In this document: positions 3 through 48,810 of the stretch, piece after piece | How positions within the stretch are numbered: position 1 is the stretch's first letter | Layout: each line of letters opens with the position of its first letter | Source: Nageia nagi | Lineage: Eukaryota; Plantae; Pinophyta | Direction: 5' to 3' | NCBI GenBank assembly: GCA_050084985.1 | Contig: JBITNC010000001.1 | Coordinates: 139,004,001 to 139,068,000, forward strand | DNA: 64,000 nt | Made by a program: the position numbers and the translations under genes | Notes under the pieces: model-generated | Told to the model about the DNA's origin: nothing | The model's input: the letters and a program-made list of their open reading frames with translations, nothing else | Database searches by the model: none

Positions 3-223
3 GCTCTAATTCATGAATTTGAAATAGGTGATTTGGTTTTAAAAGAAAATCAACAAACTTCACGAATAGAATGACAGCTTAGAGATAAGTTTGCTCTGAA
101 TTGGTTAGGACCATACATCATTAAGAAAAAATTTGGTAGAGAAACTTACATTTAGCAAATTTAGAAGGAAATGAAGAATGTGAACCTATAAACATCATGC
201 ATCTTCGACCTTTCTATACATAA
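3..223 (+). pseudogene. Integrase C-terminus (GPY/F module), one stop and one frameshift
   Basis: Translates as HEFEIGDLVLKENQ..*..DKFALNWLGPYIIKKKFGRETY/LANLEGNEECEPINIMHLRPFYT*, matching Tat/Ogre integrase tails. Confidence 0.9.
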
Positions 224-330
224 AAAAAAATGTGTGTACATTAGTTTTCTTTCATTTTATTTGATTGTTAAAATAATAGATAAATAAAAGTATTAATATT
301 TGTCAAGTGTTAATAATTAAAATAGAAAAA

Positions 331-917
331 ATGAATTTGGCAATGGAATCTGCTGAAGGTAGCATAATGCCACCACAAGTACGATTGCCACCACCGAGAT
401 ATCCAGGTGATTTCGTGTTAACATATTTATGACATACATTTGATCTTAATCTTTTGAATCATTTACAATTGACTATTGATGAGCAATATGAAAGAACATT
501 TAATATGTTTTGTGCTAGGAATAATGATTGGGGAGTCATTTTGTGTGGGATGAAGTAAGCATTATTTTAGATCCACCAATCTTTTTCACCCATATGGAAA
601 GAATATCACAAAGAATAATGGATTTCTGTTTACAATGGCCTTATGGAATACCAAAGATTGTCATAAATTGTCAATTAACTGAGTATTCACTCCTTTTAGC
701 TAGAATGAAATGCATTAAACAATTATTAAAAAGCCTAGAATGGATGGATGAAATCCTACATTATTTACCTCATAAAAGGGTGATTTATGATTTTTCAAAT
801 ACCTTTGTGGCTTGTCCTCCTAGAATGTCACAACAACAATATTATAGGTATATTAACAGATGCTCTCGCATGCAAATGCGACACACAATTTGGGAGCGAA
901 AGTTAGTGAAAAGGTAA
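331..917 (+). pseudogene. Extra 3' ORF A of Ogre/Tat element (~195 aa when repaired), unknown family
   Basis: ATG at 331, TGA at 430-432 (probable CGA>TGA), and a 1-nt frameshift near 530 joins it to track ORF 528..917. Aligns colinearly with ORF B. Confidence 0.7.
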
Positions 918-965
918 GCTTTGCTATTAATGAACTTAAAACGATAAGTCAAATAAAGGTTAGAA

Positions 966-1352
966 ATGAGATCATTGAAAGATTATCAAAAGAAAGTAGA
1001 GTACGGGAATAATGGAAGTTATCTTCCAGGGTTCGAAAATAGGTATGACAAAGATTTGTTTATGAAAGTCATTCGTAACATTCCTACTTCTTTATATTCA
1101 AACATCTTTTCCATGCCTATTGAAATTCAACAAAAACTGGCTTTGACATTTTATAATACACGCGAATCTTACGGTTGGGAGGTCAAAATAAATAGATCTC
1201 AGGTTATTATTTGTATCGACGCATTTGAACTATGGTGTTGTCCTAAATTAGAATATGATCTAATGACATATTTCTATCTCCTATGGCCCACAGAAAAGCC
1301 TAAAATCATAATTGATTGTACTTACAACCGGACTTTAAGATATCGAGAATGA
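966..1352 (+). CDS. Extra 3' ORF B of Ogre/Tat element, 128 aa, intact, paralog of ORF A
   Basis: Intact ATG-TGA ORF. Shares RYxxD, W..V.I..D and FxLxWPxxxPKIxIxC motifs with ORF A. Confidence 0.75.
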   Translation: MRSLKDYQKKVEYGNNGSYLPGFENRYDKDLFMKVIRNIPTSLYSNIFSMPIEIQQKLALTFYNTRESYGWEVKINRSQVIICIDAFELWCCPKLEYDLMTYFYLLWPTEKPKIIIDCTYNRTLRYRE

Positions 1353-1529
1353 ACCATCTTCATCGCCCAAACCGTGACTTTCGAAACATTTATATTATTA
1401 TGTTCTCGAAATTTGTCATAATCAATGATATTAGACTTTAGTTTTTTGTTTAACTCAACATATTGCTCATTTAATCCTTCGATGGTTCAGACTCGATTTG
1501 AACGCATCACAAATAGATTTCCTAGAAAT

Positions 1530-1700
1530 TCATAAAAAAAAAAAAAAATTTAAAAAATTTGAAAAATCATAAAATCCTAAAAAATTTGAAAAAATCATAA
1601 AAATCCTAAATAAAAAATTTCCTAAAAAATTGAAAAAATCATAAAATCCTAAAAAAATTGAAAAATCATAAAATCCTAAAAATTTGAAAATCATAAAACA
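1530..1700 (+). repeat. A-rich ~27-bp minisatellite (aaaaatcataaaatcctaaaaaatttg), ~6 copies
   Basis: Direct inspection. Confidence 0.85.
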
Positions 1701-1757
1701 CCATAATTTATAAATTTTAAAATCTACCTAAGACATCTAGAGGTCACTTGGCAATAG

Positions 1758-4326: not shown

Positions 4327-4341
4327 AAAAAAGGGGTAAAA
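4327..4341 (+). other. Polypurine tract
   Basis: aaaaaaggggtaaaa immediately 5' of TGTAGAC. Confidence 0.8.
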
Positions 4342-6592
4342 TGTAGACACTCAAAATAAACCCTATCTTTAATTTAATAAATAAATAAATAAAACAAATA
4401 TTTCTTCTAATATATATCACATTAAAATAATTGAGTAATATATGCATTGAGAATAACCTTAACTAAAGTAAATTAAGAACAATCACTGACCTCGTTTCTA
4501 TTTCTGGAATGTCATACTTACCAGTTTCAGCTATTTGATCACTCCCTAATGATGTCATCACTTTCAGAACCTAGTTTCATTCAAAATGTGAACTTCGTTC
4601 TCCCTGTGACATCATCGTCATATTTCCAGAATGTTATACTTACCAGTTATGGCTATTTGATCACTCCCTAATGATGTCATCACTTCTGGAACCCGATTTC
4701 ATTCAAAATGTGAACTTCATTCTCCCTATGACATCATTATCATATTTTTGGAATGTTATACTTACCAGTTCTGGCTATTTGATCACTCCCTAATGATGTC
4801 ATCACTTCCAGAACCTGGTTCATTCAAAACTGTGAACTTCATTCTCCCCATGATGTCATCATCATATTTTCAGAACATTATACTTACCAGTTCTGGCTAT
4901 TTGATCACTCCCTAATGATGTCATCACTTTTGGAACCTAGTTCATTCACAACTATGAACTTCATTCTCCCCATGACATCATCATCATAATTCCAGAACAT
5001 TATACTTACTGGTTCCAGCTATTAGATCACTCCCTGATGATGTCATCACTTTCGGGACCCGGTTCATTCAAAACTGTGAACTTCATTCTCCCTATGACAT
5101 CATCATCATAATTTGGAATGTTATACTTACTGGTTCCAGCTATTTGATCATTCTCTGATTACGTCATCACTTTCGAGACCCAGTTCATTTAAAGCTATGA
5201 ACTTCGTTCTCCTCATGACATCATCGTCATATTTCTAGAATGTTATACTTATTGGTTCCAGCTATTTGATCACTCACTGATGATGTCATCACTTCGAAAC
5301 CCAGTTTCATTCAAAATTGTGAACTTTGTTCTCCCCATGATGTCATCATCATATGTTTGGAATGTCATTCTTATTGGTCCCAGCTATTTGATCACTTCTT
5401 GATGATGTCATCATCTTCGAAACCCAGACCTTTCTACAACTTAGCTTTAACATTTACTTTCAGAATACTTTACTTACCGGCTCTGGCTATTTGATCACTA
5501 CTTGCTGATGTTATCATCTCCAGAACCTGAGCCTTTCCACAACTAAGCTTTATCTTTCTTCTGTGATGCCATCATTTCATTCCAGAATGCTTTATCTACT
5601 GACTCCAGCTTGTTTTGTGTGCTCTAGAAAAATTCCTGAGGATCTTAAAATGAACTCACGATTGCAAGTAAAATTCACTAGGGCTTCAATAAGGGATTTA
5701 AAATTATATTATTGGATCAATCTTTTCGAACATATTTTAAAACAAGTGGTCTTATGATCCTTGTCATTAAAAAATGACCATTAAATGACTATTCTAATGT
5801 TAATATATAATCGCTAAAAAATTGGTGATGATCCATGAACAGTTAAAACAACAAACAAATCTAAGCTTGGAATAGTCTAATACATACAATTTGTAATCAT
5901 GGATACAGATGGAAGATAGCAACACTTCAAAATTTAGGTTGAGAGGTTACCTGGATTCTTGGATGCCAAAACAAATGAATAACAAACTTTGAAACTTATA
6001 AATTGAAGCTTTGTACGTAAACAGGGGGACCCCAATTCTACTGTAGCGAAGCTATGCTAAAATTATATCAGGAGGTTATTAGCAAAAGGTTGTAAGCTTG
6101 ATCCATAGTAAATCTTCTCTTAAGTATATTTTTGTATAATGTTATTCATTGGTTGATTTATATGTGAGAGCAGGTATGCTTTTGATGTGTTGTTCATCTT
6201 CTATGTGCAGGGTCAATATAGGAGAAGAACGACGGAAGTAAGCGCGGAAGAGAACAACAAAGGAATAGATAAAAACACTTCAAAACTCTGTGAAGATTAC
6301 TCCAGTACATATAGAGCTAATTGTCAGTGATTCAAAGATTGGTTAACGGTGATTCACCATATAGATAATGAAGACTGATCATTGTCCATCCACCTGCATT
6401 GATTATTATCAATTTGCAATGATCGCTGTCAAATGTTGATTACAACAGATCAATAAAAACTTGCTTATTTGTATTCAAATACTTTAGATATCATTACTAT
6501 TATCGATGTGTATTGTCGAATATGTTCATGATTAATTATGTTGAATGATTTATCTTTCTAAATTGCATTTTAGGTTCATAATTTGATATACA
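4342..6592 (+). repeat. 3' LTR (~2.25 kb) of the Ogre/Tat element; right end approximate
   Basis: Starts TGTA after the PPT, has TATA-like cttataaatt near 5995 and a probable end ...gatataCA at 6592. The partner LTR is outside the window. Confidence 0.65.
4503..5612 (+). repeat. 122-bp tandem array (~9 copies) inside the LTR
   Basis: The tacttac anchor recurs at 4515, 4637, 4759, 4881, 5003, 5124, 5246, 5368, 5471 and 5593. There are two TGATGTCA/TGACATCA motifs per unit. Confidence 0.95.
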
Positions 6593-10867: not shown

Positions 10868-12650
10868 TACTTAAATATTTATGTGTATTTAGTTCATTAG
10901 TCCAAAACCTTAGGTGTACCAAAACACATATCAATATATGCAACATATATCTTATCAACCAATTCTCAAACTTTATGTAGTCTCCAATATGGCTATTATG
11001 AATCATGCATTCAATATGAGAGTTTTTAAAATAGATGATATTTTGCATGCATATCTCTCATGAAAAATATTATTGCATCATGCACATTATTGAATAATTT
11101 TATCAATATTATTTAATATTATATATTTTGCATACATTTCTATCATAAATATACATAACTATCATTGCAACCCATGAAACTATGTCTACAACATATATCT
11201 TGTCAAACAATTCCCAAACCTTCTATATTCTCTCATATTTTCAATACATGTCTATCATAGTATTCACATTGATAGAAGATGAAGCACATATGTGAGTAAT
11301 TATAATATTTTTTTAGGGCCTTTCAAATTTACAAACTTTATTATTTTATACATTGTATTATGTCTACATAGTTTTTGTATAATGTTAATGGATTTTCAAA
11401 ACCCTAAATTATTTTACTATTTTACCTTTGTAATAAAATAAATTATATATATCATTTTTTTTAATCACCTCTAATTTGTTGCATGTTTTATAATGTTAGG
11501 AATGGTGAACTCATCTTGTTAGAATACTACTATTTGTTATTGTATAAAAAATTATTGCAAGATATGTTAACCAATATTATTGCATATTATAAGGGATTCA
11601 ATGAATGATAATGCTATCAATATTGATAAATTATTGTAAGGGATAACAACCATTGTATGTGTTCTACTTGCATGCAAATTTAAGGGTTGAGGGTTGTAAA
11701 TACTTTAATACCATGACTAATTGTACTAAAATGGTCTATACTTTCTTTAATAGATCCATTTTTCATACAGGTCTACTAAGGCACTCACAACAAGAAGAGT
11801 GCCTACTCGAATATGTTGAAGCATATGGTTCTTAGTTTAACTAATTTCTAATGGATCATGATAGGTTTAATAGAGCTATGAAGATAATTTGACTGAACAC
11901 AAATGTAGTGAGTTATGTTCTCACTATATTTGTGCTCAATCCAATTATCTTCATTGGTTGTAGAGCTATATAAAACCTATATTATTTTGAGTTGGATTTA
12001 CAAGATTCTTTTTGGAAGATATGGGATATATGCAAGGTTAATCTAAAGGATTATAAGGTAAAAATGGTTTATTTTTTATATCATTTATATTATTATCTTT
12101 TTATCAAAGTTCACATTGATATCTTGTGCTTTTGGTGTTGTAGATGATAAAGCTACATATTCATATCAACATAAGATGATCAATAATAGTAATTTTTATA
12201 TAATTCATTTTTTGTTTGCATGGACATGTTCACACAATTTTAAAATTGTATTTTGGGTGTTATAAAAGGTCACACTTCACTATTATATCAACATAATATG
12301 TCAGTTGAAGGGGAATCATCATCTTTGTTACCTTCAATTGGTTGTTGAGATGGTAAGTTTTGATAAATAATATTACTATTTTTATAATTTTCTTCATGTT
12401 TTTTTTTTTATATCAATGTTAACATATTTTATATCTTGTATTTTGGGTGTTACAGATGATCAAGATACATGTTCATGTCAATATAAGATGTCATTTTAAG
12501 GGGAATCATCATTCTTGATACCTTCATAGATAGGTAACTATCATGTTAAGAAAAATCAAAATACTAAATCCCAATATCAAATGCATATATTTCACATAGA
12601 TGTAACTATTCTACTAACCTCTCATGTATCTTCCTTCTCATATGTACTAT

Positions 12651-13459: not shown

Positions 13460-15688
13460 CCTTTGATATTATACTTGAAGGTGAATTGATCTTGTTAGAC
13501 TACTACTATTATCTATTGCATTTGGTCCTTCTTAATATTTCCATATTTTGCATGTTTATGAATGTTATTATTATAATTGTATGTGAGAAAAAATCCTATT
13601 TGATTACATATCAATGAACATACACACCCCATTTCAAATCCATAAAATTGCACATATAGAAAACTTAGGTAGAAAAATATTCATAGTATACATGTATATC
13701 TTTAGATCTCTATATGCTATTATAGTCAATGCAACTATGTTTGCAACAAATATATTGTAAAATAAGATTATGCATAAAAATAACTCTATAATGTGCCCAT
13801 AATTATTGCATAAGAAAAATTTTAAGGAATGAAAACCTTTACAATTTTATGAATTATGTAAAAAATAATGTTTACTTATTCATAATGCTAATACATAATT
13901 AGCTTCATAAATATGAAAAGTTATTATTCACAAAGAGAATTAATATAATAGCTTTATGAATATGTATCTTCAAATAAAAAATAATAATGTTTACATAATT
14001 TTACCCCTAATATATTAATTAACATCATGAATATGCAAATTATGCAATCATATTGGTTATCTTCCCTTATAGTTTGCAGCAATATTGGCTACCATCCCTT
14101 ACACAATACAACTATATTGGATGGAATCCCTTACACTATGTAAAAATATTGGTTGGAATCCTTTAAAATATGCAATAATATTAGTTGGAATCCCTTACAA
14201 CAATTTATCAATATTGACAATATTTACATTTTTTAAATCCCTTACAATAATTTATCAATATTCATAGTATTTTCATTCTTGGCATGCCTTACAATAATTT
14301 ATCAATATTGATGGTATTATCATTCTTGGAATCCCTTATAATAATTTATAAATATAGATAATATTTTCATTCATTAAATACCTTACAACAATGTTTTGTA
14401 CAATAACCAATAGTAGGAGTATAACAAAGACCAATTCACCTTATTTTATGTTACGAAATATGCATCAAATTGGAGGTGATCAAGAAGAAATTACATATTT
14501 CCTTTATTTTATTAAAATAGTGAAAAAGTAAAATAATAGCATGAGTGAAGTTATAAATATTTATATTATTTTCATTCTTGGCATCCTTACAATATGTAAC
14601 AATATTGGTTGGCATCTCTTACAAGAATTTTATGTGTCATACCCAACAATACTAGTCCAACAATAGTAGTAGTTTAAGAAGGCCAATTCAGCTTGATAAA
14701 AGTTATGAAACAACCACTAAATTAAAAAAATATCAAAAACATAGTCTCATGGAAAAATTAAATCATCCTTTTATTTTATTAAAAAAATGAAATAGTACAA
14801 CAATTTAGGGTTTTTAAAGCCCTCCTAAGTAACATAATACAAAATCCATGCAAGCAAAATACAATGTATAAAATTAATACAATTTGGAGTTTTGAAATAC
14901 CCTTACAAAATATTATAATTAATCTTGGGCTTCATATTTTATCCCCAAATAGCATTCTAAAAAAAAAATATTAAATTATAACCAAATACATGGAATCATT
15001 CTACATAGTTTCATGATAGACATACTTGAAAATTTTCATTTTTTGAAAATAAATTATTATTTGGAAGTATGCATTAAATGTAATAAACAACAATAGTAGT
15101 ATAATAAGATCAATTAATATTTCCAAACAATATCAAAGTGTGTACCAAATTGGATTTATTCAATAAAAAGTGGACACATGGATCCTTTATTTATTTCTAT
15201 GATAAAATACTATAGAATTTGGAGTTTTGAAAGGCCCTCCATTAACCTTATATAATACTACTCCTAAAGCTAATATATTAGAATATGAAATTACACATTT
15301 ATCCAACAAATATTCTATAGTTAAATGCAACCTAATATATTTTAAATATGTTATGAATTATAATTCTTTTAATCATGATAAAACAAGAAAATATTGATTG
15401 GATTGTATTACAAAACAAGGTTGATTTATTTTTATTTTTCTTCACAAATTTTCCAAAATTGCAAATGATTCTAATCTCTTTATCTAATAAAATTCATGCT
15501 CCCATATGTATTACATGTCATGCATTTTGATTTTAGGTTCAAAAATTTCCTTGCAATCATTACAACTCATTTGAGAAGGCATAAAAATGATAAGTTAGTA
15601 TTATAATAACCTATCTCCAAAATATATTAAAAATACACAAAAAATTATGATCTAATACTTTGATTAATAAGAATAAAATATTTCTAAT

Positions 15689-17196: not shown

Positions 17197-18736
17197 GTAA
17201 TTATTGATTAAGATTATGTAATAACTTCACTCACTATAATCTCAGCAATAGTATACTATAAATAGACTATCCTTGATAATTTGATCTTTAGAAGTAGGTT
17301 CCTTAAACATTGGGCATAATCTATAAAGAACAAGTAACTAGAAAGGAATAAAAGGGTAAAAATATGAGAAATAAAATAAAGAGATAGAGTAACAAGAAAT
17401 AAAGCAAAGGGGTGGATCACTAGTTTAGTACAGGTTTCCATAGTGTGTAAAACCTTAGCAAGAACCTAGTGTAGTAGCCATGGAGCAAGCCTTAACTCTC
17501 TTAATTATTTCTTAGCATACATTTTACCATGTAATATACATAGTTATTCCAACACATTGCTATTATTATTTAGGAAACATTCATCAATTGTCACAACATA
17601 ACTAGATTAAAAATAATTGTAATAAGTATTGGGAAAGAAAGGTCAATATAGTATCATATTATTGAGGAAATAAAAGGTCTTTGAAAATAAATACAAGGGG
17701 AAATACTATGGATTCCAACCTTTTTGTCTTATTACTACCTCTAGTTATACAAAAAGCAAAGTAACTATATTATAACTAAAAAATATGAATGGTTACATAA
17801 AAATGCCTCAATAGACTTGATCTTCTTTTCTAAAGTCTTCGTGATTGGCAATTACATCTTTTAAAATTTTCTAACCACCCGTGTCTTTCCCAAAATCCTC
17901 TGTAATGGTTTGTAGCTCTAGCAATATTCTTTGTAACTATTCCTACTTCTATGTAAGTAAAAAGCTATTTCAAAAGTATTTGGGTGCTACTCATATAGTT
18001 TTGAAATATTATGAGCTTTTTTAGGCCTTTACTTTTATATTTGCTTCTCTTCTAGAGCTTTGTAATCATTCTAGAGATGTCAATTTGTACACCAAGTCTT
18101 TTCTTCTTATTCCTTCTCTTGGGGCTCTATGTTGAATCAAAATAGAATTATGAATGGTCCTTGATGATGTCACTTATCTTGGGCCTTATGATAAGAATAA
18201 AAATGGGACCTTTACACTCCATAGTATTTCCTTTAGGGTCATATTCTACTTGGTTCATTTCTTTTCTATTCCATCTTCTCTAGGGGTTGCACATCCTCTT
18301 GATGTCATCATCTCTCTCTAGGTCTCATTATAATACAAAAATGGAACTTTCATGCTTTGAGTGATCATTCCAAGAAATGTCTTATACTTAGCCATTTTTA
18401 CTCTACTTCTTCCCAATATTGCTCGGTTGAGTGAACTTTGGAATTTCAAATTATTTGGATGATGTCATATCTCCTTGAGCTTGGATGAAAACCAAAATAA
18501 GACCTCTACACTTTGCAAACTCCTCTAATGACATCATCATCTCTCAAGTCTAGTGATAAGACAAAACTGAAACTCCACTACTCTTTATGACATCATCTCT
18601 CCCCAAATCCATTTATATTTAGCTTATTTTCATTTGAAAGACTTTGAAATCTCCATAACTACAAAAGAATGCTTCAAATACATTAAATACACTTTTAAGG
18701 TCTTTCCAAAGATGTAGAATTATATATAAGTATACA
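17197..18736 (-). repeat. 3' LTR of TatII element
   Basis: Direct repeat of 34446-35991 (tattgattaagatt...tataagtataca), roughly 10-15% diverged by eye. Confidence 0.92.
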
Positions 18737-18829
18737 TTATGGTGAATTCTAAGGGAAAATTTTATCTTATCAAAAGAAATTATGGGCTTAGATAGGTAGA
18801 ATACTTGAAAACATCTCTTAACCATTGAT

Positions 18830-21800
18830 TAACTACTGCACTTTGTGCTAATTCTCTTGGACATTAGAAATATCCTTCAATTAAAATTCAACCAAAGCCA
18901 TTAAATTAGCAATATCATAGGAAATTTGCTTATGAGTTTGGAGGAATTGCTGTAGATTAACTTTTATCTTTTCATAGTACTCAAAAAATTATAGTATACT
19001 TTTCTCATTGAATAAAGCTATTAAGCTATCAACATCTGAACTATCCATCATAGCCTCTTGTATTTTGCTTAAAAATTCTACATTTGGTATGGGTGCTTTA
19101 TCCATCTTCCATAAAATTGTTATCCTGAAAGATACTATGTATTGTAATTCTCCTTTCAAAGAATCAATCTTGCTTTACCATTTGTATAGGCTTTTTTCTA
19201 TACTATCATATACTCCTTTCCCTTGCATAGGGTGATTAATCCATGTTAATATCTCCTTCTACTCCCTAGATTCAAAGCCTTTAATTATTCATCTACTCAT
19301 TTTTTCAATTTCCTTCTTAGCATCCTCTATTAGCAGTTCATAGCTAGCTTTCTTCTTAAGCACCTTTGCAGTGAGCTTATTTAACCATCCATAGAAAACC
19401 TCCACATTATTTTGAAATTGTATCACAATTTTCAAGTCTAGAGTGATTGAATTCTAGAATTCTTCTTTTATCTTTAGTAAAAATACCTTGTTTACTTTAT
19501 TTGTATGTGCAAGCTATTGTAGCTATGTCAAATTAGCATTTAAACTACCAATGTTGCATCCTTTAATGCAATTTCAATATCTTTATTTGCTAGATCTTAG
19601 TCCTTTTCTATAATAGTAGCTTCCTTATTACCTAGCTCTACCTCTTTTTTGGCAAGCGCAACATCCTTCTTCGTTAATGTATCAATTGTAGGAGCACTGG
19701 CTAAACCTTTCTTCAACCCAACAATTTCATTATCTATAGCATTTAACATGGAATTTTGAAGCTCTAGCTGCTTATTGAGTGACTCATTAGACTTGAACAC
19801 CTTATTATCCTTAGCTTCTAGCTTAGTTTCTTAAAAAATATTCAAGTTAACAACAGTGTACAATAACTCAATCTTATCCTACCTAGGCATGTTGGCCAAG
19901 TCTACCTTGATGCTCGTATTCATGGTTGTGAGGTCCCTGAGACCTTCTTGAGATTCATGAGCAAACACCATCTCTAATACCTTATAATTAGAGTCCAAAA
20001 AACTCTAGTCTTATTGGATTGCTTACTATAGGAATCTTCTTTACTTTCTTATCCATCCAAGCCTCTTGATTGGCCTTCACTTGCTAGTACTATTGCATTA
20101 TCCCATTGCTGGACACCTACTACCCAAAAATAGTGATAAATAATGAATTAGGACTCAAATCTTGCATTGGTGCTGACATGATTTGCTTGCCCAATGTTGA
20201 ACGGTTAACTTTGGTGGGGCCAGGGTTGACATTGATGATTGGGTTTACTAGTATAAGTGGATTTGCAAACATTGAATGAAATTGAGTGATAAGGGTGATG
20301 AATTATGTAGTTAAGATGGAGAGTGGAGGTGGAAGTGCTTAAGGTATGATTGGTGTAGGTGTGGTTGATGCTAATGTAAATAGAGTGACTAGCGGTATGA
20401 AAATAGGCAAAGGAGTTAGCATTGGTATTACTAGTGCAATTGATGAAGGAGATGTATCTAGGATTAATTGAGAAATTGAAGTAGAAGAAGAAGTAGAGTG
20501 GTAAAAGTGTGTACCTAAGTGTGGAGTGGTATATTTTATATGCTTCTATGGTTGTATGATTTAAAGACTAGCATGAGTCTTTATTTTTGAAGAATATACC
20601 TTTTCAACATTCTATGGAGAATTCTCTAAAACATTCTCTTTCAATGCTTGGGCTTTATCTTCCTTTTTGCTACTTTCTTCTCCATCCAAAGAGCCTTCAT
20701 TTGATGAATCAACATCATAAAGATATACTAGATTCCACATCTTTACAAATATGTCATCCATGTTTGACTCCAATGGTGGAAACTAATTCTTGAATTCAAT
20801 CCGATATTGACTAAAAGTTGTTATCTTCTCCATAGACCACTTATTGCTCTTAAGCTACTTTATGATGTTCTTTGAAGTGCCATACTTATTAGGATCATTA
20901 CTCACTTTTATTTCATAAAAAAATTAGCCATGGTGGAATCAAATCCTTGGTGACCATGGCCATGGGCATTAGGATTCATTTTATCCCCTATTCCTCCATT
21001 GCTCAATTTTAGGTCTTCACTCAACCATGAAGCTTGGTAGGTTTGATTGTAATTTATTTGATAGTTTTACTCTCCAAAAAATACTAGTATTTGGTCTTGC
21101 CCTGAGGCAATCTCAAATAAAAGCTAGAATCTTCTAACAGTCTACTTAGTGTTGTGCTAATCAAAGCCATGGTTGAGACTAAGAAATGTTCTACAAATGA
21201 GTAATAACATCTTCAAGACTTAATTTCTTCATTCCAATTATCCATAAACCTAACATCTCTATTACTATCAACTTTCCTCAATTGTAACCTAATGAAGGAG
21301 TTAGGGTTTTGATGGATGAAAAGCCAAATGATGTATGATACACAAGCAAAATGGGAACCATCACCTATTGTGGTTAATTGCTCTATGATACCATCTAAAA
21401 TTACTACCAACAAATCAAATATGGTAGGATTAGAAGGATGAGAGATTTTGTTAGCAATGCTTGATTAAGTAAGTGATGCAAATCTATCAATTTCATCTCC
21501 CATCACTATGCTAATCATAGATATCAGCAACTAAAGGTGTTAATAAAAAAGAGATATGGGGACATCTATTTGTGGGAATTCCATGAAATCTATAGTAGAG
21601 CATTTCTTTATCTTGTTTACAACCTTCAAGATAATTATGGGGGAAGGTCTCATATCTAGATCCAATAAAATAGGGGTTGTTTGAGATGTAGATGGGTTGA
21701 CAGCAACTATGATGGCTTGGGGAGTTAAATTTAAAACCATTTTGCCATACAAGTCTCTAACTACGCTATCTAATGGGTCAAAGTCTCTCTTTATCAATTC

Positions 21801-22013
21801 AATGAGCTCTAGTGTAGGAAGACATCTATGGGGGATGAAGTACATCAAGTCAGAGCCTATGGGTGAATGTGCAATATGATTAAAACTTAAAATTAGGCAT
21901 TTACCTTTAGTTGTGCCCTTTAGATTCTTATCTTTTACAATGATCTTGGTATCCCATAATAGCTCCATGGAGTCAATGAACTTATTCAAATTCTTACCTT
22001 GAGCATGAGACAT
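18830..22013 (-). pseudogene. Large sense extra ORF downstream of integrase (globular N-terminus, Pro/Ser/Thr-rich middle, coiled-coil C-terminus), disrupted
   Basis: Track ORFs 21540..22013, 21213..21413 and 19597..19800 lie on the pol strand. There is a low-complexity segment at 20150-20520. Confidence 0.7.
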
Positions 22014-25000
22014 TTACATTGTTTTGAAACACTAAAACTACCCTCAAATATTGATTCTCTTACAATTATAATGCTTTCAAACATCTCACTTCTTAGAAAA
22101 ATTGGATACTAGGTGCTTTAAACTTAGAAACTTTGTCTACTCGAGAAACCTTTATGCTTTATTGAAACCAATCTCTCAAGGATATAGAGTTTATCTCAAA
22201 TGCCTTCAAGTTCTTACATAAGTAATGAATTTATACTTTCATTAAAGATGAATCATGTATACTCCCTTATTTTGTATTCTTTGCATAATGTAATAGTTGA
22301 TCTCACTTCATTTGATGCTGACATGACTTCACTAGAAATCAAGACCTTGGAATAATAAACAAAATAAATTCTTAAACCAAACACACTCCAAAATATTTAC
22401 AAGGTAATACTTTTCCATTTCAACTTAATTCCTCACCCATGTAGGTTGGTAATGCTTTAAACATTGGCCATTTACTGTATTTGGTAATTCATGCCTATCA
22501 AGTTGACCAATATGAAGGCATTCTCTGTAATACATTTTGCTATTATATAATGCCTAGACCATAATGATTTAAAATTCTTATGTTTGTCTACCATTTCCCT
22601 ATCCTCATCCCATTTTAGAACCAACTATCCCTCTTTAAAGCTTTTTAATGATGCTTTCTAGCTATCAAACCATTTGTTTATAATTATGCTCCTTGCTTGC
22701 AAATCCATATAAGCTTTTTCTCAAGATTTTTTAAGATGTAATGCTTCATTAATCTAGACTTGTAATGATTTAAACTCACCACTATATTCCTTAGCAATCC
22801 TTAGAGCCAAGAACTCTATGCGATTAGGAAATTGAGCCCTTTTTTATATACAAGCACATAAGGACTAGTTTTGATTGAAGATTTAATAGTAATCCTATCT
22901 ACCCATAAGGCCCAATTTAGCTTTATGTGCCATGAATGGGGATTATCCTCCATTATTCTTATCAAGATCCTCATAAGGTTTTTGTTAGTACATTCATCTA
23001 ATCATATTCATGGCCGTGAGGTCCCTAGGACCTTCTTGAGATTCATGAGCAAACACCATCTCTAAGACCTTATAATTAGAGTCCAAAAAACTCTAGTCTT
23101 ATTGGATTGCTTGCTATAGGAATCTTCTTTAATTTCTTATCCATCCAAGCCTCTTGATTGGCCTTCACTTGTTAGTACTATTGCATTATCCCATTTATGG
23201 ACACCTGCTACCCAAAAATAATGATAAATAATGAATTAGGACTCAAATCTTGCATTGGTGCTGACATGATTTGCTTGCCCAATGTTGAACGGTTAACTTT
23301 GGTGGGGCCAGGGTTGACATTGATGATTGGGTTTACTAGTATAAGTGGATTTGCAAACATTGAATGAAATTGAGTGATAAGGGTGATGAATTATGTAGTT
23401 AAGATGGAGAGTGGAGGTGGAAGTGCTTAAGGTATGATTGGTGTAGGTGTGGTTGATGCTAATGTAAATAGAGTGACTAGCGGTATGAAAATAGGCAAAG
23501 GAGTTAGCATTGGTATTACTAGTGCAATTGATGAAGGAGATGTAGCTAGGATTAATTGATAAATTGAAGTAGAAGAAGAAGTAGAGTGGTAAAAGTGTGT
23601 ACCTAAGTGTGGAGTGGTATATTTGATATGCTTCTATGGTTGTATGATTTAAAGACTAGCATGAGTCTTTATTTTTGGAGAATTCTCTAAAACATTCTCT
23701 TTCAATGCTTGGGATTGATCTTCCTTTTCGCTACTTTCTTCTCCATCCAAAGAGCCTTCATTTGATGAATCAACATCATCAAGATATACTAGATTCCACA
23801 TCTTTACAAATATATCATCCATGTTTGACTCCAATGGTACAAACTAATTCTTGAATTCAATCCGATATTGACTAAAATTTTTTATCTTCTCCATAGACCA
23901 CTTATTGTTTTTAAGCTACTTTATGATGTTCTTTGAAATTCCATACTTCTTAGGGTCATTATTCACTTTTATTTCATAAAAAAATTAGCCATGGTGGGAT
24001 CAAATCCTTGGTGACCATGGCCATGGGCATTAGGGATTCATTTTCTCCCCTATTCCTCCATTGCTCAATTTTAGGTCTTTGCTCAACCTTGAAGCTTGGC
24101 AGGTTTGGTTGTAATTTATTTGATAGTTTTACTCTCCAGAAAATACTAGTCTTTGGTCTTTCCCTGAGGTAATCTCAAATAAAAGCTAGAATCTTCTAAT
24201 AGTCTAGTTAGTGGTATGCTAATCAAAGCCATGGTTGAGACTAAGAAATGTTCTACAAATGAGTAATAACATCTTCAAGACTTAATTTCTTCATTCCAAT
24301 TATCCACAAACCTAACATCTCTATTACTATCAACTTTCCTCAATTGTAACCTAATGAAGGAGTTAGGGTTTTGATGGATGAAAAGCCAAATGATGTACGA
24401 TACACAAGCAAAATGGGAACCATCACCGATTATTGTTAATTGCTCTATGATAACATCTAAAATTACTACCAACCAATCAAATATGGAAGGATTAGAAGGA
24501 TGAGAGATTTTGTTAGCAATGGTTGATTAAGTAGGTGATGCAAATCTATCAATTTCTTCACCCATCACTATGCTAATCATAGATATAAGCAACTAAAGGT
24601 GTTAATAAAAAAGAGATATGGGGACATCTATTTGTGAGAATTCCATGAAATCTATAGTAGAGCATTTCTTTATCTACTTTAAAACCTTCAAGCTCATTAT
24701 GGGGGAAGGTCTCATATCAAGATCCAATAAAATAGGGGTTATTTGATATGTAGATGATTTGAAAGCAACTATGATGGCTTGGGGAGTTAAATTTAAAACC
24801 ATTTTGCCATACAAGTCTCTAACTACCCTATCTAATGGGTCAAAGTCTCTCTTTATCAATTAAATGAGCTCTAGTGTAGGAAGACATCTATGGGGGATGA
24901 AGTACATCAAGTCAGAGCCCATGGGTGAATGTGCAATATGATTAAAACTTAAAATTAGGCATTTACCTTTAGAAGTGCCCTTTAGATTCTTATTTTTTGC

Positions 25001-28000
25001 AATGATCTTGGTATCCCATAACAGCTCCATGGAGTCAATGAACTTCTTCAAATTCTTACCTTGAGCATGAGACATTTACATTGTTTTGAAACACTAAAAC
25101 TACACCCAAATATTGATTCTCTTACTATGATAATGCTTTCAAACATCTCACTTCTTAGAAAAATTGGACACTCGATGCTTTTAACTTAGAAACTTTGTCT
25201 ACTCGAGAAAACTTTATGCTCAATTGAAACCAATCTCTCAAGGATATAGTGTTTATCTCAAATGCCTTCAAATTCTTACATAAGTAATGAATTTATACTT
25301 TCATTAAAGATGAATCATGTATACTCCCTTATTTTGTAATCTTTGCATAATGTAATAGTTGATCTCATTTCATTTGATGCTAACATGACATCACTAGAAA
25401 TCAATACCTTGGAATAATAAACAAAATAAATGCATAAACCAAACACACCTCAAAATATTTACAAGGTAATACTTTTCCATTTCAACTTAATTCCTCACCC
25501 ATGTAGGTTGGTAATGCTTTAAATGTTGGTCATTTACCGTATTTGGTAATTCATGCCTATCAAGCTTGACCAATATGAAGGCATTCTCTGCAATACATTT
25601 TGCTATTATATAATCCCTAGACCATAATGATTTAAACTTCTTATGTTTTCCTACCTTTTCCCTATCCTCATCCCATTTTAGAACCAACTCTCCCTCTTTA
25701 AATCTTTTTGATGATGCTTTCTAGCTATCAAACCATTTGTTTATAATTATGCTCCTTGCGTGCAAATCCATATAAGCTTTTTCTCAAGATTCTTTAAGAT
25801 GTAATACTTCATTAATCTAGACTTGTAATGATTCAAACTCACCACTATATTCCTTAGCAATCCTTAGAGCCAAGAACTCTATGTGATTAGGAAATTGAGC
25901 CCTTTTTCATATACAAGCACATAAGGACTAGTTTGGATTGAAGATTTAATAGTAATCCTATCTACCCATAAGGCCCAATTTAGCTTTATGTGCCATGAAT
26001 GGAGATTATCCTCCATTATTCTTATCAAGATCCTCATAAGGTTTTTGTTAGTACATTCAGCTAATCATATTCATGGTCGTGAGGTCCCTGGGACCTTCTT
26101 GAGATTCATGAGCAAACACCATCTCTAATACCTTATAATTAGAGTCCAAAAAACTCTAGTCTTATTGGATTGCTTGCTATAGGAATCTTCTTTACTTTCT
26201 TATCCATCCAAGCCTCTTGATTGGCCTTCAATGCTAATACTATTGCATTATCCCATTGATGGACACCTGCTACCCAAAAATAGTGATAAACAATGAATTA
26301 GGACTCAAATCTTGCATTGGTGTTGACATGATTTGCTTACCCAATGTTGAAGGGTTAACTTTGGTGGGGCCAAGGTTGACATTAATGATTGGGTTTACTA
26401 GTAAAAGTGGATTTGCAAACATTGAGGGAAATTAAGTGATAGGGGTGATTAATTATGTAGTTAAGATGGATAGTGGAGGTGGAAGTGGTTAAGGTATGAT
26501 TGGTGTAGGTGTCGTTGATGCTAATGTAAATAGAGTGACTAGTAGTATGAAAATAGGCAAAGGAGTTAGCATTGGTATTACTAGTGCAACTGATGAAGGA
26601 GATGTAGCTAGGATTAATTGATAAATTGAAGTAGAAGAAGAAGTAGAGTGGTAAAAGTGTGTACCTAAGTGTGGAGTGGTATATTTTATATGCTTATATG
26701 GTTGTATGATTTAATGACTAGCATGAGGCTTTATTTTTGAAGAATATACCTTTTCAACATTCTATGGAGAATTCTCTTAAACATTCTCTTTCAATGCTTG
26801 GGATTGATCTTCCTTTTTGGGTACTTTCTTCTCCATACAAAGAGCCTTCATTTGATGAATCAACATCATCAAGATATACTAGATTCCACATATTTACAAA
26901 TATATCATCCATGTTTGACTCCAATGGTGCAAACTAATTCTTGAATTCAATCCAATATTGACTAAGAGTTGTTATCTTCTCCATAGACCACTTATTACTC
27001 TTAAGCTACTTTATGATGTTCTTTGAAATGCCATACTTCTTAGGGTCATTATTCACTTTTATTTCATAAAAAAATTAGCCATGGTGGGATCAAATCCTTG
27101 GTGACCATGGCCATGGGCATTAGGGATTCATTTTCTCCCCTATTCCTCCATTGCTCAATTTTAGGTCTTTGCTCAACCTTGAAGCTTGGCAGGTTTGGTT
27201 GTAATTTATTTGATAGTTTTACTCTCCAGAAAATACTAGTCTTTGGTCTTTCCCTGAGGTAATCTCAAATAAAAGCTAGAATCTTCTAATAGTCTAGTTA
27301 GTGGTATGCTAATCAAAGCCATGGTTGAGACTAAGAAATGTTCTACAAATGAGTAATAACATCTTCAAGACTTAATTTCTTCATTCCAATTATCCACAAA
27401 CCTAACATCTCTATTACTATCAACTTTCCTCAATTGTAACCTAATGAAGGAGTTAGGGTTTTGATGGATGAAAAGCCAAATGATGTACGATACACAAGCA
27501 AAATGGGAACCATCACCGATTATTGTTAATTGCTCTATGATAACATCTAAAATTACTACCAACCAATCAAATATGGAAGGATTAGAAGGATGAGAGATTT
27601 TGTTAGCAATGGTTGATTAAGTAGGTGATGCAAATCTATCAATTTCTTCACCCATCACTATGCTAATCATAGATATAAGCAACTAAAGGTGTTAATAAAA
27701 AAGAGATATGGGGACATCTATTTGTGAGAATTCCATGAAATCTATAGTAGAGCATTTCTTTATCTACTTTAAAACCTTCAAGCTCATTATGGGGGAAGGT
27801 CTCATATCAAGATCCAATAAAATAGGGGTTATTTGATATGTAGATGATTTGAAAGCAACTATGATGGCTTGGGGAGTTAAATTTAAAACCATTTTGCCAT
27901 ACAAGTCTCTAACTACCCTATCTAATGGGTCAAAGTCTCTCTTTATCAATTAAATGAGCTCTAGTGTAGGAAGACATCTATGGGGGATGAAGTACATCAA

Positions 28001-29156
28001 GTCAGAGCCCATGGGTGAATGTGCAATATGATTAAAACTTAAAATTAGGCATTTACCTTTAGAAGTGCCCTTTAGATTCTTATTTTTTGCAATGATCTTG
28101 GTATCCCATAACAGCTCCATGGAGTCAATGAACTTCTTCAAATTCTTACCTTGAGCATGAGACATTTACATTGTTTTGAAACACTAAAACTACACCCAAA
28201 TATTGATTCTCTTACTATGATAATGCTTTCAAACATCTCACTTCTTAGAAAAATTGGACACTCGATGCTTTTAACTTAGAAACTTTGTCTACTCGAGAAA
28301 ACTTTATGCTCAATTGAAACCAATCTCTCAAGGATATAGTGTTTATCTCAAATGCCTTCAAATTCTTACATAAGTAATGAATTTATACTTTCATTAAAGA
28401 TGAATCATGTATACTCCCTTATTTTGTAATCTTTGCATAATGTAATAGTTGATCTCATTTCATTTGATGCTAACATGACATCACTAGAAATCAATACCTT
28501 GGAATAATAAACAAAATAAATGCATAAACCAAACACACCTCAAAATATTTACAAGGTAATACTTTTCCATTTCAACTTAATTCCTCACCCATGTAGGTTG
28601 GTAATGCTTTAAATGTTGGTCATTTACCGTATTTGGTAATTCATGCCTATCAAGCTTGACCAATATGAAGGCATTCTCTGCAATACATTTTGCTATTATA
28701 TAATCCCTAGACCATAATGATTTAAACTTCTTATGTTTTCCTACCTTTTCCCTATCCTCATCCCATTTTAGAACCAACTCTCCCTCTTTAAATCTTTTTG
28801 ATGATGCTTTCTAGCTATCAAACCATTTGTTTATAATTATGCTCCTTGCGTGCAAATCCATATAAGCTTTTTCTCAAGATTCTTTAAGATGTAATACTTC
28901 ATTAATCTAGACTTGTAATGATTCAAACTCACCACTATATTCCTTAGCAATCCTTAGAGCCAAGAACTCTATGCGATTAGGAAATTGAGCCCTTTTTCAT
29001 ATACAAGCACATAAGGACTAGTTTGGATTGAAGATTTAATAGTAATCCTATCTACCCATAAGGCCCAATTTAGCTTTATGTGCCATGAATGGAGATTATC
29101 CTCCATTATTCTTATCAAGATCCTCATAAGGTTTTTGTTAGTACATTCAACTAATC
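19917..29156 (-). repeat. Three tandem ~3.06-3.09 kb units (integrase C-terminal half plus first two-thirds of the extra ORF)
   Basis: Units start tattcatgg at 19917, 23005 and 26068. Identical ORFs occur 3090 bp apart (24860..25075 vs 27950..28165). Confidence 0.95.
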
Positions 29157-29859: not shown

Positions 29860-31250
29860 GGGAAAATCTCTACATCATATTTAAGGATTTTAGAGATCCA
29901 CCTGTGTCTTCCCTCACCCATCTCACCTTGCATAATATAAGACCTATCACCTAGGTGAATGGTTAGGACAAATATTTTACTTTGAGCTACATAATGTTAT
30001 AGCTTGTTGATGGCCTTCAAGATTGCTAACACTTGTTTTTTAATGAAAGTGTACTTCTCTTCATAGTTTTTAATAGTTTGACTAAAGAAATCAATTTGGT
30101 ATTCATCATTATTATCATCTTTTTGTGTTAACACAACAACAACACTTACCTTTGAATCATATGCATATAATATGAATTCTTTATTAAAATTTAGACTTCT
30201 TAATACTATAGCTTTGGTTATTGCTGATTTGATTTGTTTGAAATCTTGCTTCCCTTGTTCATTCCATATAAAGGATGCATCTTTTTTTAACATTGCAGTA
30301 ATAGGTTTAATGATACCTAACAAATCATGAATAAATCTTCTTACAAAATTGTTTCATCCTAAAAAGACTCCAACTATTTTCTATTATAAGGTAGAGATAG
30401 ACTATTAATAGCCTCAACTCTATCTAAATCAACGAACCATCCTTCTTTAGAAATAACATGACCTAAGAGTTTGCTATCATTTACTACAAAGATAGAATTT
30501 TTTGGATTAATGGAAATTTCAAATTTCTTACATATAATAAAAGCCTATTCTATATGTTGAATGTGGCCCTCTTTTTTATGTAAGAATATGGGAATGTCAT
30601 CTAGATAAACCAATAAGCTTTTATTTATCAAACCCTCAAAAGCATGATTCATTACTTTTTGGAAAGTGGCTCTAGTATTAGATAGCCCAAAAGGCATCCT
30701 TTGAGAGGCAAAAGTTCCCCATTTTATGGTGAAGGCAGTCTTGAATTGATCTTCATTTTTAACCCATATTTGATTATATCTAGAGAAACCATCTATCAAA
30801 GATAAGCATTTTACTCTAGCTACAATGTTTAATATTTATTCCATTATGGGAAATGGATAATGATCTTTCAAAGAAACCCTATTCAAACCTCTAAAATCTA
30901 CACATAGCTAGATCTCTCCATTCTTCTTCATGATAGGCACCAAGTTAGCTACCCATGTAGAATGTTTTATAGGATAAATTATACCAACTTTGTACAACTT
31001 TAATACTTCCTATTTCATGGCAAGCTCTATGTTCGGATTGACAAGCCTTTGTTTTAGTCTTATAGGTTTGATATATTTGATTAGTTCAATAGTATGTTGG
31101 ATTATAGATTTATCAAACACCTTTAAATACTCATAAGGCCAAGCAATTATATTAACATAAACTTTGCACAACTGTATGATTTTTTCATTTTATTGAATAG
31201 TGGTGCATGTACCAACTTTAATAAATTTTCTAAGAAATATTTCATATTCT
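29860..31250 (-). pseudogene. Reverse transcriptase and retroviral-type RNase H, decayed
   Basis: IDGFSRYNQI..DQFKTAFTIKWGTFASQRMPFGLSN..LLVYLDD and FILYAYDS..VLTQKDD..FFSQ..YTFIKKQ. Confidence 0.95.
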
Positions 31251-34445: not shown

Positions 34446-35991
34446 TATACTATTGATTAAGATTGTGTAATAACTTCACCTGCTACAATCTCAATAATAA
34501 TATACTATGAAAAGACTATCCATGATAATCTGATCTTTGGAGAAGGTTGATTCCTTATACATTGGGTATAAACTATAAAGAAAAAGTAACCAAAAAGGAA
34601 TAAATGGGTAAAAATATGAGGAATGAAATAAAGATATAGAGTAACAAGGAATAAAGCAAAGGGGTGGATCACTAGTTCAATGCAGGCTTCCATAGTGTGT
34701 GAAACCTTAGCAAAAACCTAGCGTAGCAACCATAGAGCAAGCCTTCACTCTCTTAATTATTTCTTAGTATACATTTTACCATGTAATATACATAATTATT
34801 ACAACACATTGCTATTATTATTAAGAAAACATTCATCAATTCCCACAACATAACCAGATTAAGAATAATTCAAACGAGTGTTGGGAAAGAAAGGTCAATA
34901 TAGTATCATATTATTGAGGAAATAAAAGGTCTTCAAAAATAAATACAAGGGGAAATACTAGGGATTCCAACCTATTTGTATTATTATTTCCTCTACTTAT
35001 ACAAAAAGTAAAGTAACTATAATATAATTGAAAAGATCAAACGATTACATAAAAATGCCTCAATAATCCCAATCTTCTTTTTTGAAGTTTTCTTCATGAT
35101 AGTTATGTCTTTTGAATTTTTTTGACCACCCATGTCTTTTTTAGAATCCTTTGCAATGGTCTATAGCTCTAGTAAGGTTCTTCATAATTTTTCCTACTTT
35201 TTTGGAAGTAAAAAGCTATTTCAAAAGTTTTTGGGTGCTACTCCTATGGTTTTGAAACATTATGAGCTTTTTTGGGCCTTTCCTTTTATATCTATTTCTC
35301 TTCTAGAGCTCTATGATCATTTCAAAGATGTCAATTTATATCCTAGGCCTTTTCATCTTATTCCTTCTCTTGAGGCTCTATGTTGAATCAAATTAGAATT
35401 ACAAATGCTCCTTGATGATGTCACTTATCTTAGGCCTAGTTGTAAGAACAAAAATGGGACCTTTGCACTCCATGGTATTTCCTCTAGGGTCATCTTCTAC
35501 TTGGTTCATTTGTTTTCTATTCCATCTTCTTTGGGGCCCACACATCCTCTTGATATCATCATCTCTCTTTAGGTTTGGTTATAAGATAAAAATGAAACTT
35601 CCATGCTTTGGGTGATGTCACATCAGGAAATGTCTTATACTTAGCCATTTTTACTCTACTTGTTCCCAAGGTTGCTAGGTCGAGTAGACTTTGGAATTTC
35701 AAATTCTTTGAATGATGTTGTCTCACCTCAAGCTTGAAATAAAGAACCAAAATAGGACCTTCACACTCTATAAACTCTTCTAATGACATCATCATCTCCT
35801 AGGTTCAATGATAAGATAAAAATGAAACTTTGCTACTCTGCATGATGTCATCTCTCCCTAGATCCCTTTATACTTAGCTTATTTTCATTTGAAAGACTCT
35901 GAAATCTCTATAACTACAAAAGAATGCTTTAAATACATTATATACAATTTCAAGGCCTTCCCAAAGATGTAGAATTATATATAAGTATACA
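34446..35991 (-). repeat. 5' LTR of TatII element
   Basis: Adjacent to the PBS; direct repeat of 17197-18736. Confidence 0.92.
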
Positions 35992-36014
35992 TTAATACTA
36001 CATATTTAGTCTAG

Positions 36015-48536: not shown

Positions 48537-48595
<59 letters not shown>

Positions 48596-48810
48596 AGGAT
48601 ATGTGGAAAACAATATACATCATTAAAATGTTGCTTCATGCATCATAGATAAACTCAAATGGATAGAAATGTAAGGGCATATGAAAATGCTTCTCCAAGG
48701 TGTAGGATATACACAAAATAATTATATTGGAAAAGTCTAAGTATTATTTAACAATAGATTTCATCAAAATATAGCCTCAAGGACCTCAATAATCCTAGGA
48801 TATGAATAAT
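47555..48810 (+). pseudogene. Decayed tandem S-type PPR motifs within the LTR
   Basis: Recurrent ~93-bp units reading RACKLFDK..HQNIIS / AYELFDKLP / GYAHNGY. Confidence 0.85.
48540..48594. repeat. (TA)n microsatellite
   Basis: Direct inspection; unexpanded in the sister LTR near 59637. Confidence 0.95.

What the first reader, a model, noticed from the sequence alone, without database searches (positions are those of the whole stretch)
331..1352. Pair of paralogous accessory genes of unknown family downstream of an Ogre/Tat integrase
Seen: after repairing one TGA (430) and one 1-nt frameshift (~530), ORF A aligns with intact ORF B almost without gaps over ~90 aa. The aligned blocks are RYPGDFVLTYL[R]..N.....I.EQ..R..DW vs RYDKDLFMKVIR..N.....I.IQ..R..GW, W........V.I..D in both, and FCLQWPYGIPKIVINC vs FYLLWPTEKPKIIIDC. 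The TGA falls on a conserved Arg (CGA decay). DNA similarity is not apparent, so the duplication is old and the conservation is at protein level. Established: Tat/Ogre elements carry extra ORFs, but I do not recognise this domain as env-like, PMD or any named family. Inference: a retrotransposon-encoded accessory protein family under selection, possibly anti-silencing or RNA-binding and possibly acting with the hairpin cluster that follows.
Basis: partly seen in the sequence, partly recalled or inferred. Interest (0 to 1): 0.85.

Follow-up and report, generated by a model that had tools for sequence, protein, structure and literature searches.

The report
Two-repeat accessory gene of plant retrotransposon
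A decayed plant jumping gene carries, just after its integrase, a broken extra gene built from two old copies of an unnamed protein domain that related elements kept under selection, and whose product likely acted as a binding protein helping the element cope with its host.

Summary
The paralogy is real, but the anatomy needs correcting. A and B are two tandem copies of a roughly 165-residue domain (not 90), 15-25% identical. A profile of repeat 1 alone finds 6 of 6 repeat-2 sequences. In the window's family they are most likely one sense extra ORF of about 400 codons (331-1535). B is not intact, the first frame break lies near 550, and the stop at 430 is not on a conserved Arg. Three divergent relatives carry both repeats and a fourth the start of repeat 1, at the same place behind a Tat integrase. 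Selection is purifying (dN/dS 0.24, 95% 0.17-0.35), yet the ORF diverges far faster than the integrase, and one close relative lacks it entirely. All three full relatives share a stop between the repeats, so a split or read-through form is open. There is no Pfam, PDB or significant fold match, no membrane segment, and it is not the extra RNase H. Function is inferred only: a soluble accessory binding protein acting in trans. Sense extra ORFs are known in Tat elements; this domain appears undescribed.

The parts
3..223 (+). Decayed 3' end of pol: integrase C-terminal (SH3-like, GPY/F-type) region of a Tat-clade Ty3/Gypsy element; stop at 221-223
   Evidence: Weak Pfam SH3_Tf2-1 match, E 0.04; 71-78% aa identity to integrase ends of L001, L005, L006, L008, L012, L018; broken by a stop and a frame break; end position
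224..330 (+). AT-rich spacer between pol and the extra ORF
   Evidence: Similar length and loose alignment in L005, L006, L013, L018; no conserved splice or promoter motif identified
331..1535 (+). Decayed sense extra ORF (eORF-3'F), about 400 codons, two tandem repeats. Breaks in this copy: stops at 430, 915 and 1350; frame breaks near 550, 924, 1005, 1385 and 1425
   Evidence: Frame map from 8 natural proteins; indels and variants in contigs of other copies. The break near 1385 is read by eye. Natural relatives align from 307-313, so the family start may lie a few codons upstream
385..880 (+).
881..1030 (+). Basic linker between the repeats, read in frame 2 from about 926 to 1005 in this copy
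   Evidence: P0004 matches frame 3 to 941 and frame 2 over 926-985 at 75%; the corresponding stretch in L006 v L018 (which includes the end of repeat 1) has dN/dS 0.17 over 60 codons
1031..1532 (+).
   Evidence: P0001 and P0002 match to 1526; landmarks
1509..1709 (+). A-rich short tandem repeats just after the ORF
   Evidence: similar repeats follow the ORF in L006
2650..3160 (+). 146-bp tandem array (about 3.5 copies) in the long 3' untranslated region; source of two of the three mild hairpin signals
4327..4341 (+). Polypurine tract
   Evidence: Sequence; the same tract and TG start occur in L008
4342..6674 (+). Putative 3' LTR with an internal 122-bp tandem array; right end uncertain
   Evidence: Starts TG directly after the tract; an imperfect inverted terminus ends at 6674 and recurs in a local duplication near 6990; array

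Best explanation
This is a decayed copy of a sense extra gene that a Tat-clade plant LTR retrotransposon carries between its integrase and 3' LTR, made of two tandem copies of an unnamed domain kept under purifying selection, whose product was likely a soluble, non-enzymatic binding protein acting in trans on host silencing components or the element's own nucleic acid. Shown: position, two-repeat architecture, duplication older than the split of the element families, purifying selection, much faster change than the integrase, absence from a close relative, no membrane segment. Well supported but not shown by a single intact protein: one continuous ORF in the window's family (about 0.8). Predicted: each repeat starts with three short helices followed by an alpha-beta-beta-alpha-alpha-beta core. 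Inferred: expression from a subgenomic RNA, action in trans, and the target. I put counter-silencing or host-factor binding first (about 0.35), ahead of RNA chaperoning or export (about 0.25). The host is inferred to be a cypress- or yew-type conifer.
For: Both repeats sit behind the integrase in 3 of 23 integrase-motif loci by a profile built without them, and L013 holds the start of repeat 1. Repeat-1 and repeat-2 sequences form separate clades, UFBoot 100. dN/dS for L006 v L018 is 0.23 over 302 codons, LRT 49, with off-frame controls of 1.5 and 2.0; it is 0.24 (bootstrap 0.17-0.35) over 404 codons aligned as DNA. Window family v L005/L006/L018: integrase end 71-74% identical, repeats 18-35%. 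Invariant Y, D, Q, W, W, P occur across both repeats. One ORF: P0004 bridges repeat 1 and linker; offsetting one-base indels at 924 and 1005 occur in contigs of other copies; L005 holds both repeats in one frame, and L006 and L018 run in frame from the end of repeat 1 into repeat 2. Dispensable: L008/L012 lack about 1.55 kb covering the whole ORF while matching L006 on both sides. No hydrophobic segment above 1.54 in 17 of 17 rows. Model pLDDT is 74-89 over residues 31-100. Precedent: accessory TE proteins evolve faster and are predicted to contact more host proteins (PMC13547354, section read).
Against: No natural full-length two-repeat protein was found (0 of 3794 longer candidates; the tool calls this weak evidence). 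L005, L006 and L018 all have a stop at the same codon just after repeat 1; the chance of this under independent decay is about 0.1. The indels at 924 and 1005 were each listed in only 2 of 4 runs, mostly as a minority of depth, and X14 did not show loss of the stop at 915. One of four comparisons of the window's repeat 1 was not significant (v L018, p 0.13), and three distant pairs are saturated. No function is tested: no fold match (best Z 4.5), no catalytic or binding motif, and the C-terminal 70 residues of the model are unreliable. L008 and L012 are 98.9% identical and count as one loss, in a copy whose integrase end is also frameshifted, so loss does not prove action in trans.
Confidence: 0.55

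Rival explanations
1. The two repeats are separate proteins, or a short and a read-through long product: a real stop ends repeat 1 in the sister lineage and the window's family is a later fusion (or the reverse).
For: 3 of 3 sister-lineage loci that cover the site have a stop at the same codon, followed 15 codons later by a Met in 2 of 3. In-frame ORFs parted by one stop are common in the pol region of Ogre and Retand (PMC6317226 supplement 5).
Against: The stops differ (TAA, TGA, TAA), the copies are decayed, and chance coincidence is about 0.1. The 14 codons after the stop still look coding (3 synonymous, 3 non-synonymous differences). The window, P0003 and P0004 read through this site.
Confidence: 0.25
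2. Each repeat is a KH-II-like RNA-binding module, and the tandem pair binds the element's own RNA for export, packaging or translation control.
For: The predicted element order in the core matches type II KH (topology recalled); weak rows include ribosomal S3 and an archaeal helicase domain. The linker is basic, and tandem arrangement is typical of RNA-binding modules (recalled).
Against: No conserved GxxG loop. These matches have Z 2.8-3.2 and rank below designed mini-proteins and T3SS ring motifs, so they show only a common arrangement. Repeat 1 is neutral to acidic.
Confidence: 0.25
3. The domain is a captured F-box/LRR N-terminal module that recruits SKP1 and degrades a host defence protein, as polerovirus P0 does (recalled).
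For: By eye, the three N-terminal helices and an LP-x-x-I-Q motif recall F-box proteins (recalled, from no call). Gene-fragment capture by TEs is reported to be frequent in conifers (PMC13477047 passages).
Against: 0 of 17 rows hit any F-box or LRR family at E up to 10; the profile finds no F-box chain among PDB sequences; none is listed among the fold rows.
Confidence: 0.08
4. It is a passenger: a captured or ancient sequence copied with the element without function.
For: Every copy seen at DNA level is broken; absent from L007, L008/L012 and L014.
Against: dN/dS 0.24 in the sense frame against 1.5-2.0 off-frame; invariant residues across repeats only 15-25% identical.
Confidence: 0.05

Closest known systems
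Sense extra ORFs between pol and 3' LTR (eORF-3'F, aORF-3S) of Tat-clade elements (PMC6317226; PMC7264820)
   Same: Position, orientation, length above 250 codons, no database domain. REXdb lists eORF-3'F in 26% of 27 TatII, 6% of 766 Ogre and 22% of 2155 Retand elements; only 21.4% of eORF proteins had CDD hits, and Ty3/gypsy eORFs fell into 314 groups.
   Different: No internally duplicated domain of this kind is described in what I read. Relatives have aRH directly before the integrase, unlike TatII. Whether one of the 314 groups holds it could not be checked (REXdb files 1 and 3 were too large to read).
Retrovirus-like Tat elements, structure 1 (RT-RH-aRH-INT); cluster Tat J of conifers II (PMC10508981; PMC13468544)
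   Same: L012 shows RH then aRH; ORF-bearing L005 and L006 show aRH then integrase. AT-rich DNA; relatives in air-metagenome contigs.
   Different: The parts of these papers I read describe pol architecture only, with no 3' extra ORF. The same order also occurs in angiosperm Ogre/Retand, Gnetophyta and ferns, so cluster and host are inferred.
env-like ORFs of Athila, SIRE and Bagy-2
   Same: Sense ORF downstream of pol.
   Different: No transmembrane segment; no ATHILA ORF-1 hit; Tat rather than Athila pol.
PMD (PF10536) and TRP28 (PF04195) extra ORFs of Ogre, TatIII and Retand; VANC anti-silencing proteins of VANDAL
   Same: TE-borne accessory proteins beside tandem repeats; a possible functional analogy only.
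   Different: Those LTR-element ORFs are mostly antisense and carry named domains; no Pfam hit here.

Membership tests
Tat clade of Ty3/Gypsy | Additional (archaeal-type) RNase H in the element | tested here: met
   RVT_3 hits at E about 1e-10 in ORF-bearing relatives L005 and L006 and in L012; the window's own pol lies outside the window
Tat clade of Ty3/Gypsy | RT phylogeny | not testable with these tools
   RT is outside the window, no host genome is held, and no reference RT set was at hand
TatII (REXdb) | aRH between protease and RT | tested here: not met
   In relatives aRH lies after RH and before the integrase; tested on relatives, not on the window
TatIII (REXdb) | aRH after the integrase; antisense PMD extra ORF | tested here: not met
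   The post-integrase domain does not align to the relatives' aRH (hhalign probability 0.12%); no PMD hit
Ogre (REXdb) | aRH between RH and integrase | tested here: met
   Relatives L005, L006, L012; shared with Retand and Tat J, so not diagnostic
Ogre (REXdb) | tRNA-Arg primer binding site, Gag-protease fusion | not testable with these tools
   The 5' half of the element is outside the window
Ogre (REXdb) | Plant mobile domain in the extra ORF (57% of elements) | tested here: not met
   0 of 17 rows and 0 of 3 long read-throughs hit PF10536
eORF-3'F / aORF-3S | Sense ORF of 250 codons or more between pol and 3' LTR, present across copies | tested here: met
   About 400 codons in the window's family, single-frame stretches of 279-333 codons with stops in three relatives; no fully open copy seen
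env-like ORF | Transmembrane segment | tested here: not met
   Highest 19-residue hydropathy 0.55-1.54 in 17 of 17 rows
env-like ORF | Spliced subgenomic mRNA | not testable with these tools
   Only contigs, none on record as RNA
RNase H (extra aRH copy) | Profile similarity and DEDD core | tested here: not met
   only one invariant acidic residue
F-box / F-box-LRR | F-box profile match | tested here: not met
   HMMER filters drop weak matches, so remote homology is not excluded
F-box / F-box-LRR | F-box fold | tested here: inconclusive
   Not among listed rows; the model is only partly confident
Type II KH domain | alpha-beta-beta-alpha-alpha-beta fold | tested here: inconclusive
   Same element order but Z at most 3.2 to S3-type chains
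Type II KH domain | GxxG loop between the two central helices | tested here: not met
   No GxxG at that site in any of 17 rows; two unrelated GxxG occur elsewhere

The most novel reading that the evidence does not exclude
A conifer Tat retrotransposon lineage evolved its own counter-silencing protein from a domain with no known relative. It was duplicated into a two-module protein before the families split, races ahead of the integrase in a conflict with the host, and is made as a short or long form by stop-codon read-through in the sister lineage. It would be an LTR-retrotransposon counterpart of VANC and a candidate driver of conifer giga-genome expansion.
Probability: 0.15. Interest if true: 0.85.

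Novelty: new variant of a known kind. Interest (0 to 1): 0.5.

Why it matters
The function of extra ORFs in plant LTR retrotransposons is an open question (PMC7264820, PMC4408406). This one has a defined, alignable domain with invariant residues, measured purifying selection, natural elements with and without it, and a partly confident fold, so it can be tested. If it counters silencing, it would help explain how high-copy elements keep multiplying in very large, heavily methylated gymnosperm genomes. If it is only another unnamed accessory ORF, it is still a new domain family for TE annotation.

Tried and rejected
No host genome is held. Pfam gave nothing above cut-off for the extra ORF; PHROGs and NCBIfam gave only scattered single-member hits at E 0.04 or worse; PDB sequence searches gave best E 0.38 and 0.6. 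The ESM Atlas gave no usable hit for window B or P0007, which shows neither novelty nor absence. Near-length searches found only 2 and 5 close fragments and the longer-protein search none. Peptide-pattern scans of metagenome and viral contigs confirmed 0 of 82 and 0 of 9 stretches. The second model gave no Foldseek match at E 0.001 in PDB or BFVD (best 0.06 and 0.034) and no Z of 5 or more; the aviadenovirus ORF14, BON and ring-building-motif rows were judged a common arrangement. No RNA holder is listed; X8 is only a guess at RNA and is not used as evidence of expression. The aRH, env-like, PMD and F-box readings were tested and not supported. Module swapping between integrase and ORF: the integrase end rejects none of 3 topologies and the repeats favour one that it accepts, so no incongruence is claimed. 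The integrase control for dN/dS was uninformative among close pairs (0.32-0.78 on about 70 codons) and near 0.02 among distant ones. A 710-nt pol comparison of L006 and L018 was dropped because L018's upstream end is not pol. The bacterial promoter scan does not apply. Earlier scan findings: none returned.

Full report
Setting. The window begins in the broken 3' end of a Ty3/Gypsy integrase (3-223). A polypurine tract at 4327-4341 and a TG start at 4342 mark the 3' LTR; the same junction is present in locus L008. The finding lies in the long pol-to-LTR region, 108 bases after the pol stop. Contigs of 4 runs laid on 1-2400 cover all 30 bins with thousands of distinct pieces, most at 90-99% identity, so this is a multi-copy family (depth is no copy number). 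No host genome is held.

Is the A/B likeness real? On the window alone it is marginal: one 16-residue block, score 50, 21 of 5000 shuffles as high. Natural fragments from close copies (P0001-P0007) change that: profile against profile gives probability 95.9%, E 5.3e-9 over 128 columns. A profile from repeat-1 rows alone scores 6 of 6 repeat-2 sequences at 24.8-51.2 bits, against 12.7 for the best of 3000 shuffles; the reverse finds 10 of 11. The shared unit is about 165 residues, 15-25% identical between repeats, with invariant Y, D, Q, W, W and P.

Corrections to the anatomy. Eight natural proteins mapped on the window put the first frame break at 549-552, show P0004 running from repeat 1 into a linker read in frame 2, and show P0001 and P0002 continuing to 1526, beyond the stop at 1350. 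Contigs of other copies lack the stop at 915 in 3 of 4 runs and carry one-base indels at 924 and 1005 that offset each other, each listed in 2 of 4 runs. The window copy thus has at least three premature stops and five frame breaks in what is most likely one ORF from about 331 to 1535. The column of the stop at 430 is variable in relatives.

Relatives. A scan of metagenome contigs for the integrase motif gave 23 loci. A profile made without them hit 3 of 23 (L005, L006, L018), and L013 holds the start of repeat 1 up to its contig end. All start 230-265 bases after the motif. In an integrase-end tree (20 of the 23 loci plus the window; L012, L019 and L023 left out as near-duplicates or broken), the window, L001, L005, L006, L008, L013 and L018 form one group, support 81. 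L001 is too short to assess. L008 and its near-twin L012 lack about 1.55 kb spanning the whole ORF, with the junction in A-rich tracts. The neighbours L007 and L014 show no trace over 5.0 and 3.6 kb. Repeat-1 and repeat-2 sequences group by repeat, support 100 (13 of 17 rows used), so the duplication is older than these families. L005 holds both repeats in one frame (333 codons, 12 stops), and L006 and L018 run in frame from the end of repeat 1 through repeat 2.

Against a simple one-gene picture: L005, L006 and L018 all have a stop at the same codon just after repeat 1. The stops differ and chance coincidence under decay is about 0.1, while the window, P0003 and P0004 read through the site. 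A real stop or read-through in the sister lineage stays open. No natural full-length protein was found among 3794 longer candidates.

Selection. A codon model gives dN/dS 0.23 for L006 v L018 over 302 codons (LRT 49), with 1.5 and 2.0 in the two other sense frames; one antisense frame, the mirror of the coding frame, gives 0.42. Aligned as DNA, without regard to protein, the value is 0.24 (bootstrap 0.17-0.35, 404 codons). Distant pairs give lower values but are biased by protein alignment or saturated, and one was not significant. The ORF changes much faster than the integrase end: 18-35% against 71-74% identity between the window's family and L005, L006, L018. No module swap could be shown.

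Lineage. ORF-bearing L005 and L006 have the additional RNase H directly before the integrase, and L012 shows RH then aRH. That excludes TatII and TatIII as defined in PMC6317226 (passages) and matches retrovirus-like structure 1, reported as absent from Pinaceae (PMC10508981, parts 1-2 of 3) and present in cluster Tat J of conifers II (PMC13468544, passages and section 2.3). With 30% GC and air-metagenome holders, a cypress- or yew-type host is my inference; the same order occurs in angiosperm Ogre and Retand.

What the domain is. No Pfam, PHROGs, NCBIfam or PDB sequence match. Not aRH. No membrane segment. With 17 rows AlphaFold2 gives pLDDT 60 overall and 74-89 over residues 31-100: short helices, then alpha-beta-beta-alpha-alpha-beta; residues 107-176 are unreliable. 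Fold searches give nothing significant (best Z 4.5, rmsd 3.2, 62 residues, to a designed protein). The element order recalls type II KH and BON domains (recalled), but the GxxG loop is absent. The F-box likeness I saw by eye found no support.

How it most likely works. Shown: a selected, fast-evolving, soluble, two-repeat accessory coding region that can be lost. Inferred: it is made from a subgenomic RNA, as for other downstream ORFs (PMC7264820, parts 1-2 of 3), and acts in trans as a binding protein. Fast change under purifying selection and lack of a catalytic motif fit contact with host factors, as reported for Arabidopsis TE accessory proteins (PMC13547354, passages and one section). I rank counter-silencing or host-factor binding (about 0.35) above RNA handling (about 0.25); neither was tested. 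The downstream region holds tandem arrays, as in Retand (PMC11963269, part 1 of 5), but no notable hairpin cluster.

Novelty. Sense extra ORFs of Tat elements are known and mostly unnamed (PMC6317226 supplements 4 and 5 read whole; PMC4408406 passages). Eight paper searches (listings only, except the papers named here) showed no description of this two-repeat domain. REXdb files 1 and 3 were too large to read and Steinbauerova 2011 was seen only as a reference, so either may already hold it unnamed. PMC11728184 and PMC13477047 were seen as passages. Verdict: a real, selected, apparently undescribed accessory domain in a known kind of position; a new variant of a known kind, interest 0.5.

Noticed in passing
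L008 (contig-reverse strand, about 190-700 nt after the integrase motif) and L012: Derivative lacking the whole extra ORF, joined through A-rich tracts, in an element 86% identical to L006/L018 at the integrase end; a natural control for the ORF's role.
   Followed up: yes
L005, L006, L018, 14 codons after the MIYDF motif of repeat 1: Stop at the same codon in all three loci; recurrent decay or a real, possibly leaky, stop.
   Followed up: partly
L006 to 3117 and L018 to 2173: The sister-lineage ORF runs about 40-60 codons beyond the end of repeat 2, a tail with no counterpart found in the window's family.
   Followed up: partly
window 4381-5610: About ten copies of a 122-bp unit inside the putative 3' LTR.
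   Followed up: no
window 17294-18739 and 34546-35994: Direct repeats 17.25 kb apart, 83-90% identical, likely the LTR pair of another element; an RT-type RNase H stretch lies between them at 30000-30353, minus strand.
   Followed up: partly
window 19900-29000: Triplicated unit of about 3.07 kb, mostly 94-98% identical, with a 157-codon stop-free stretch at 21543-22013 (minus) that has no Pfam hit.
   Followed up: partly
window 45952-49783 and 57112-61101: Duplication about 11.1 kb apart holding a roughly 92-nt repeat whose translations look like decayed PPR repeats (recalled motif; no Pfam hit at E 0.01).
   Followed up: partly
window 11294-11650 and 14156-14924: Long imperfect inverted repeats with a 47-bp tandem unit, possibly a foldback or Mutator-type element end.
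   Followed up: no
L002, L009, L010/L019, L015, L016, L017, L020, L021: A separate integrase group whose 3' regions share tandem repeats of about 190 bp and show no match to the two-repeat domain.
   Followed up: no
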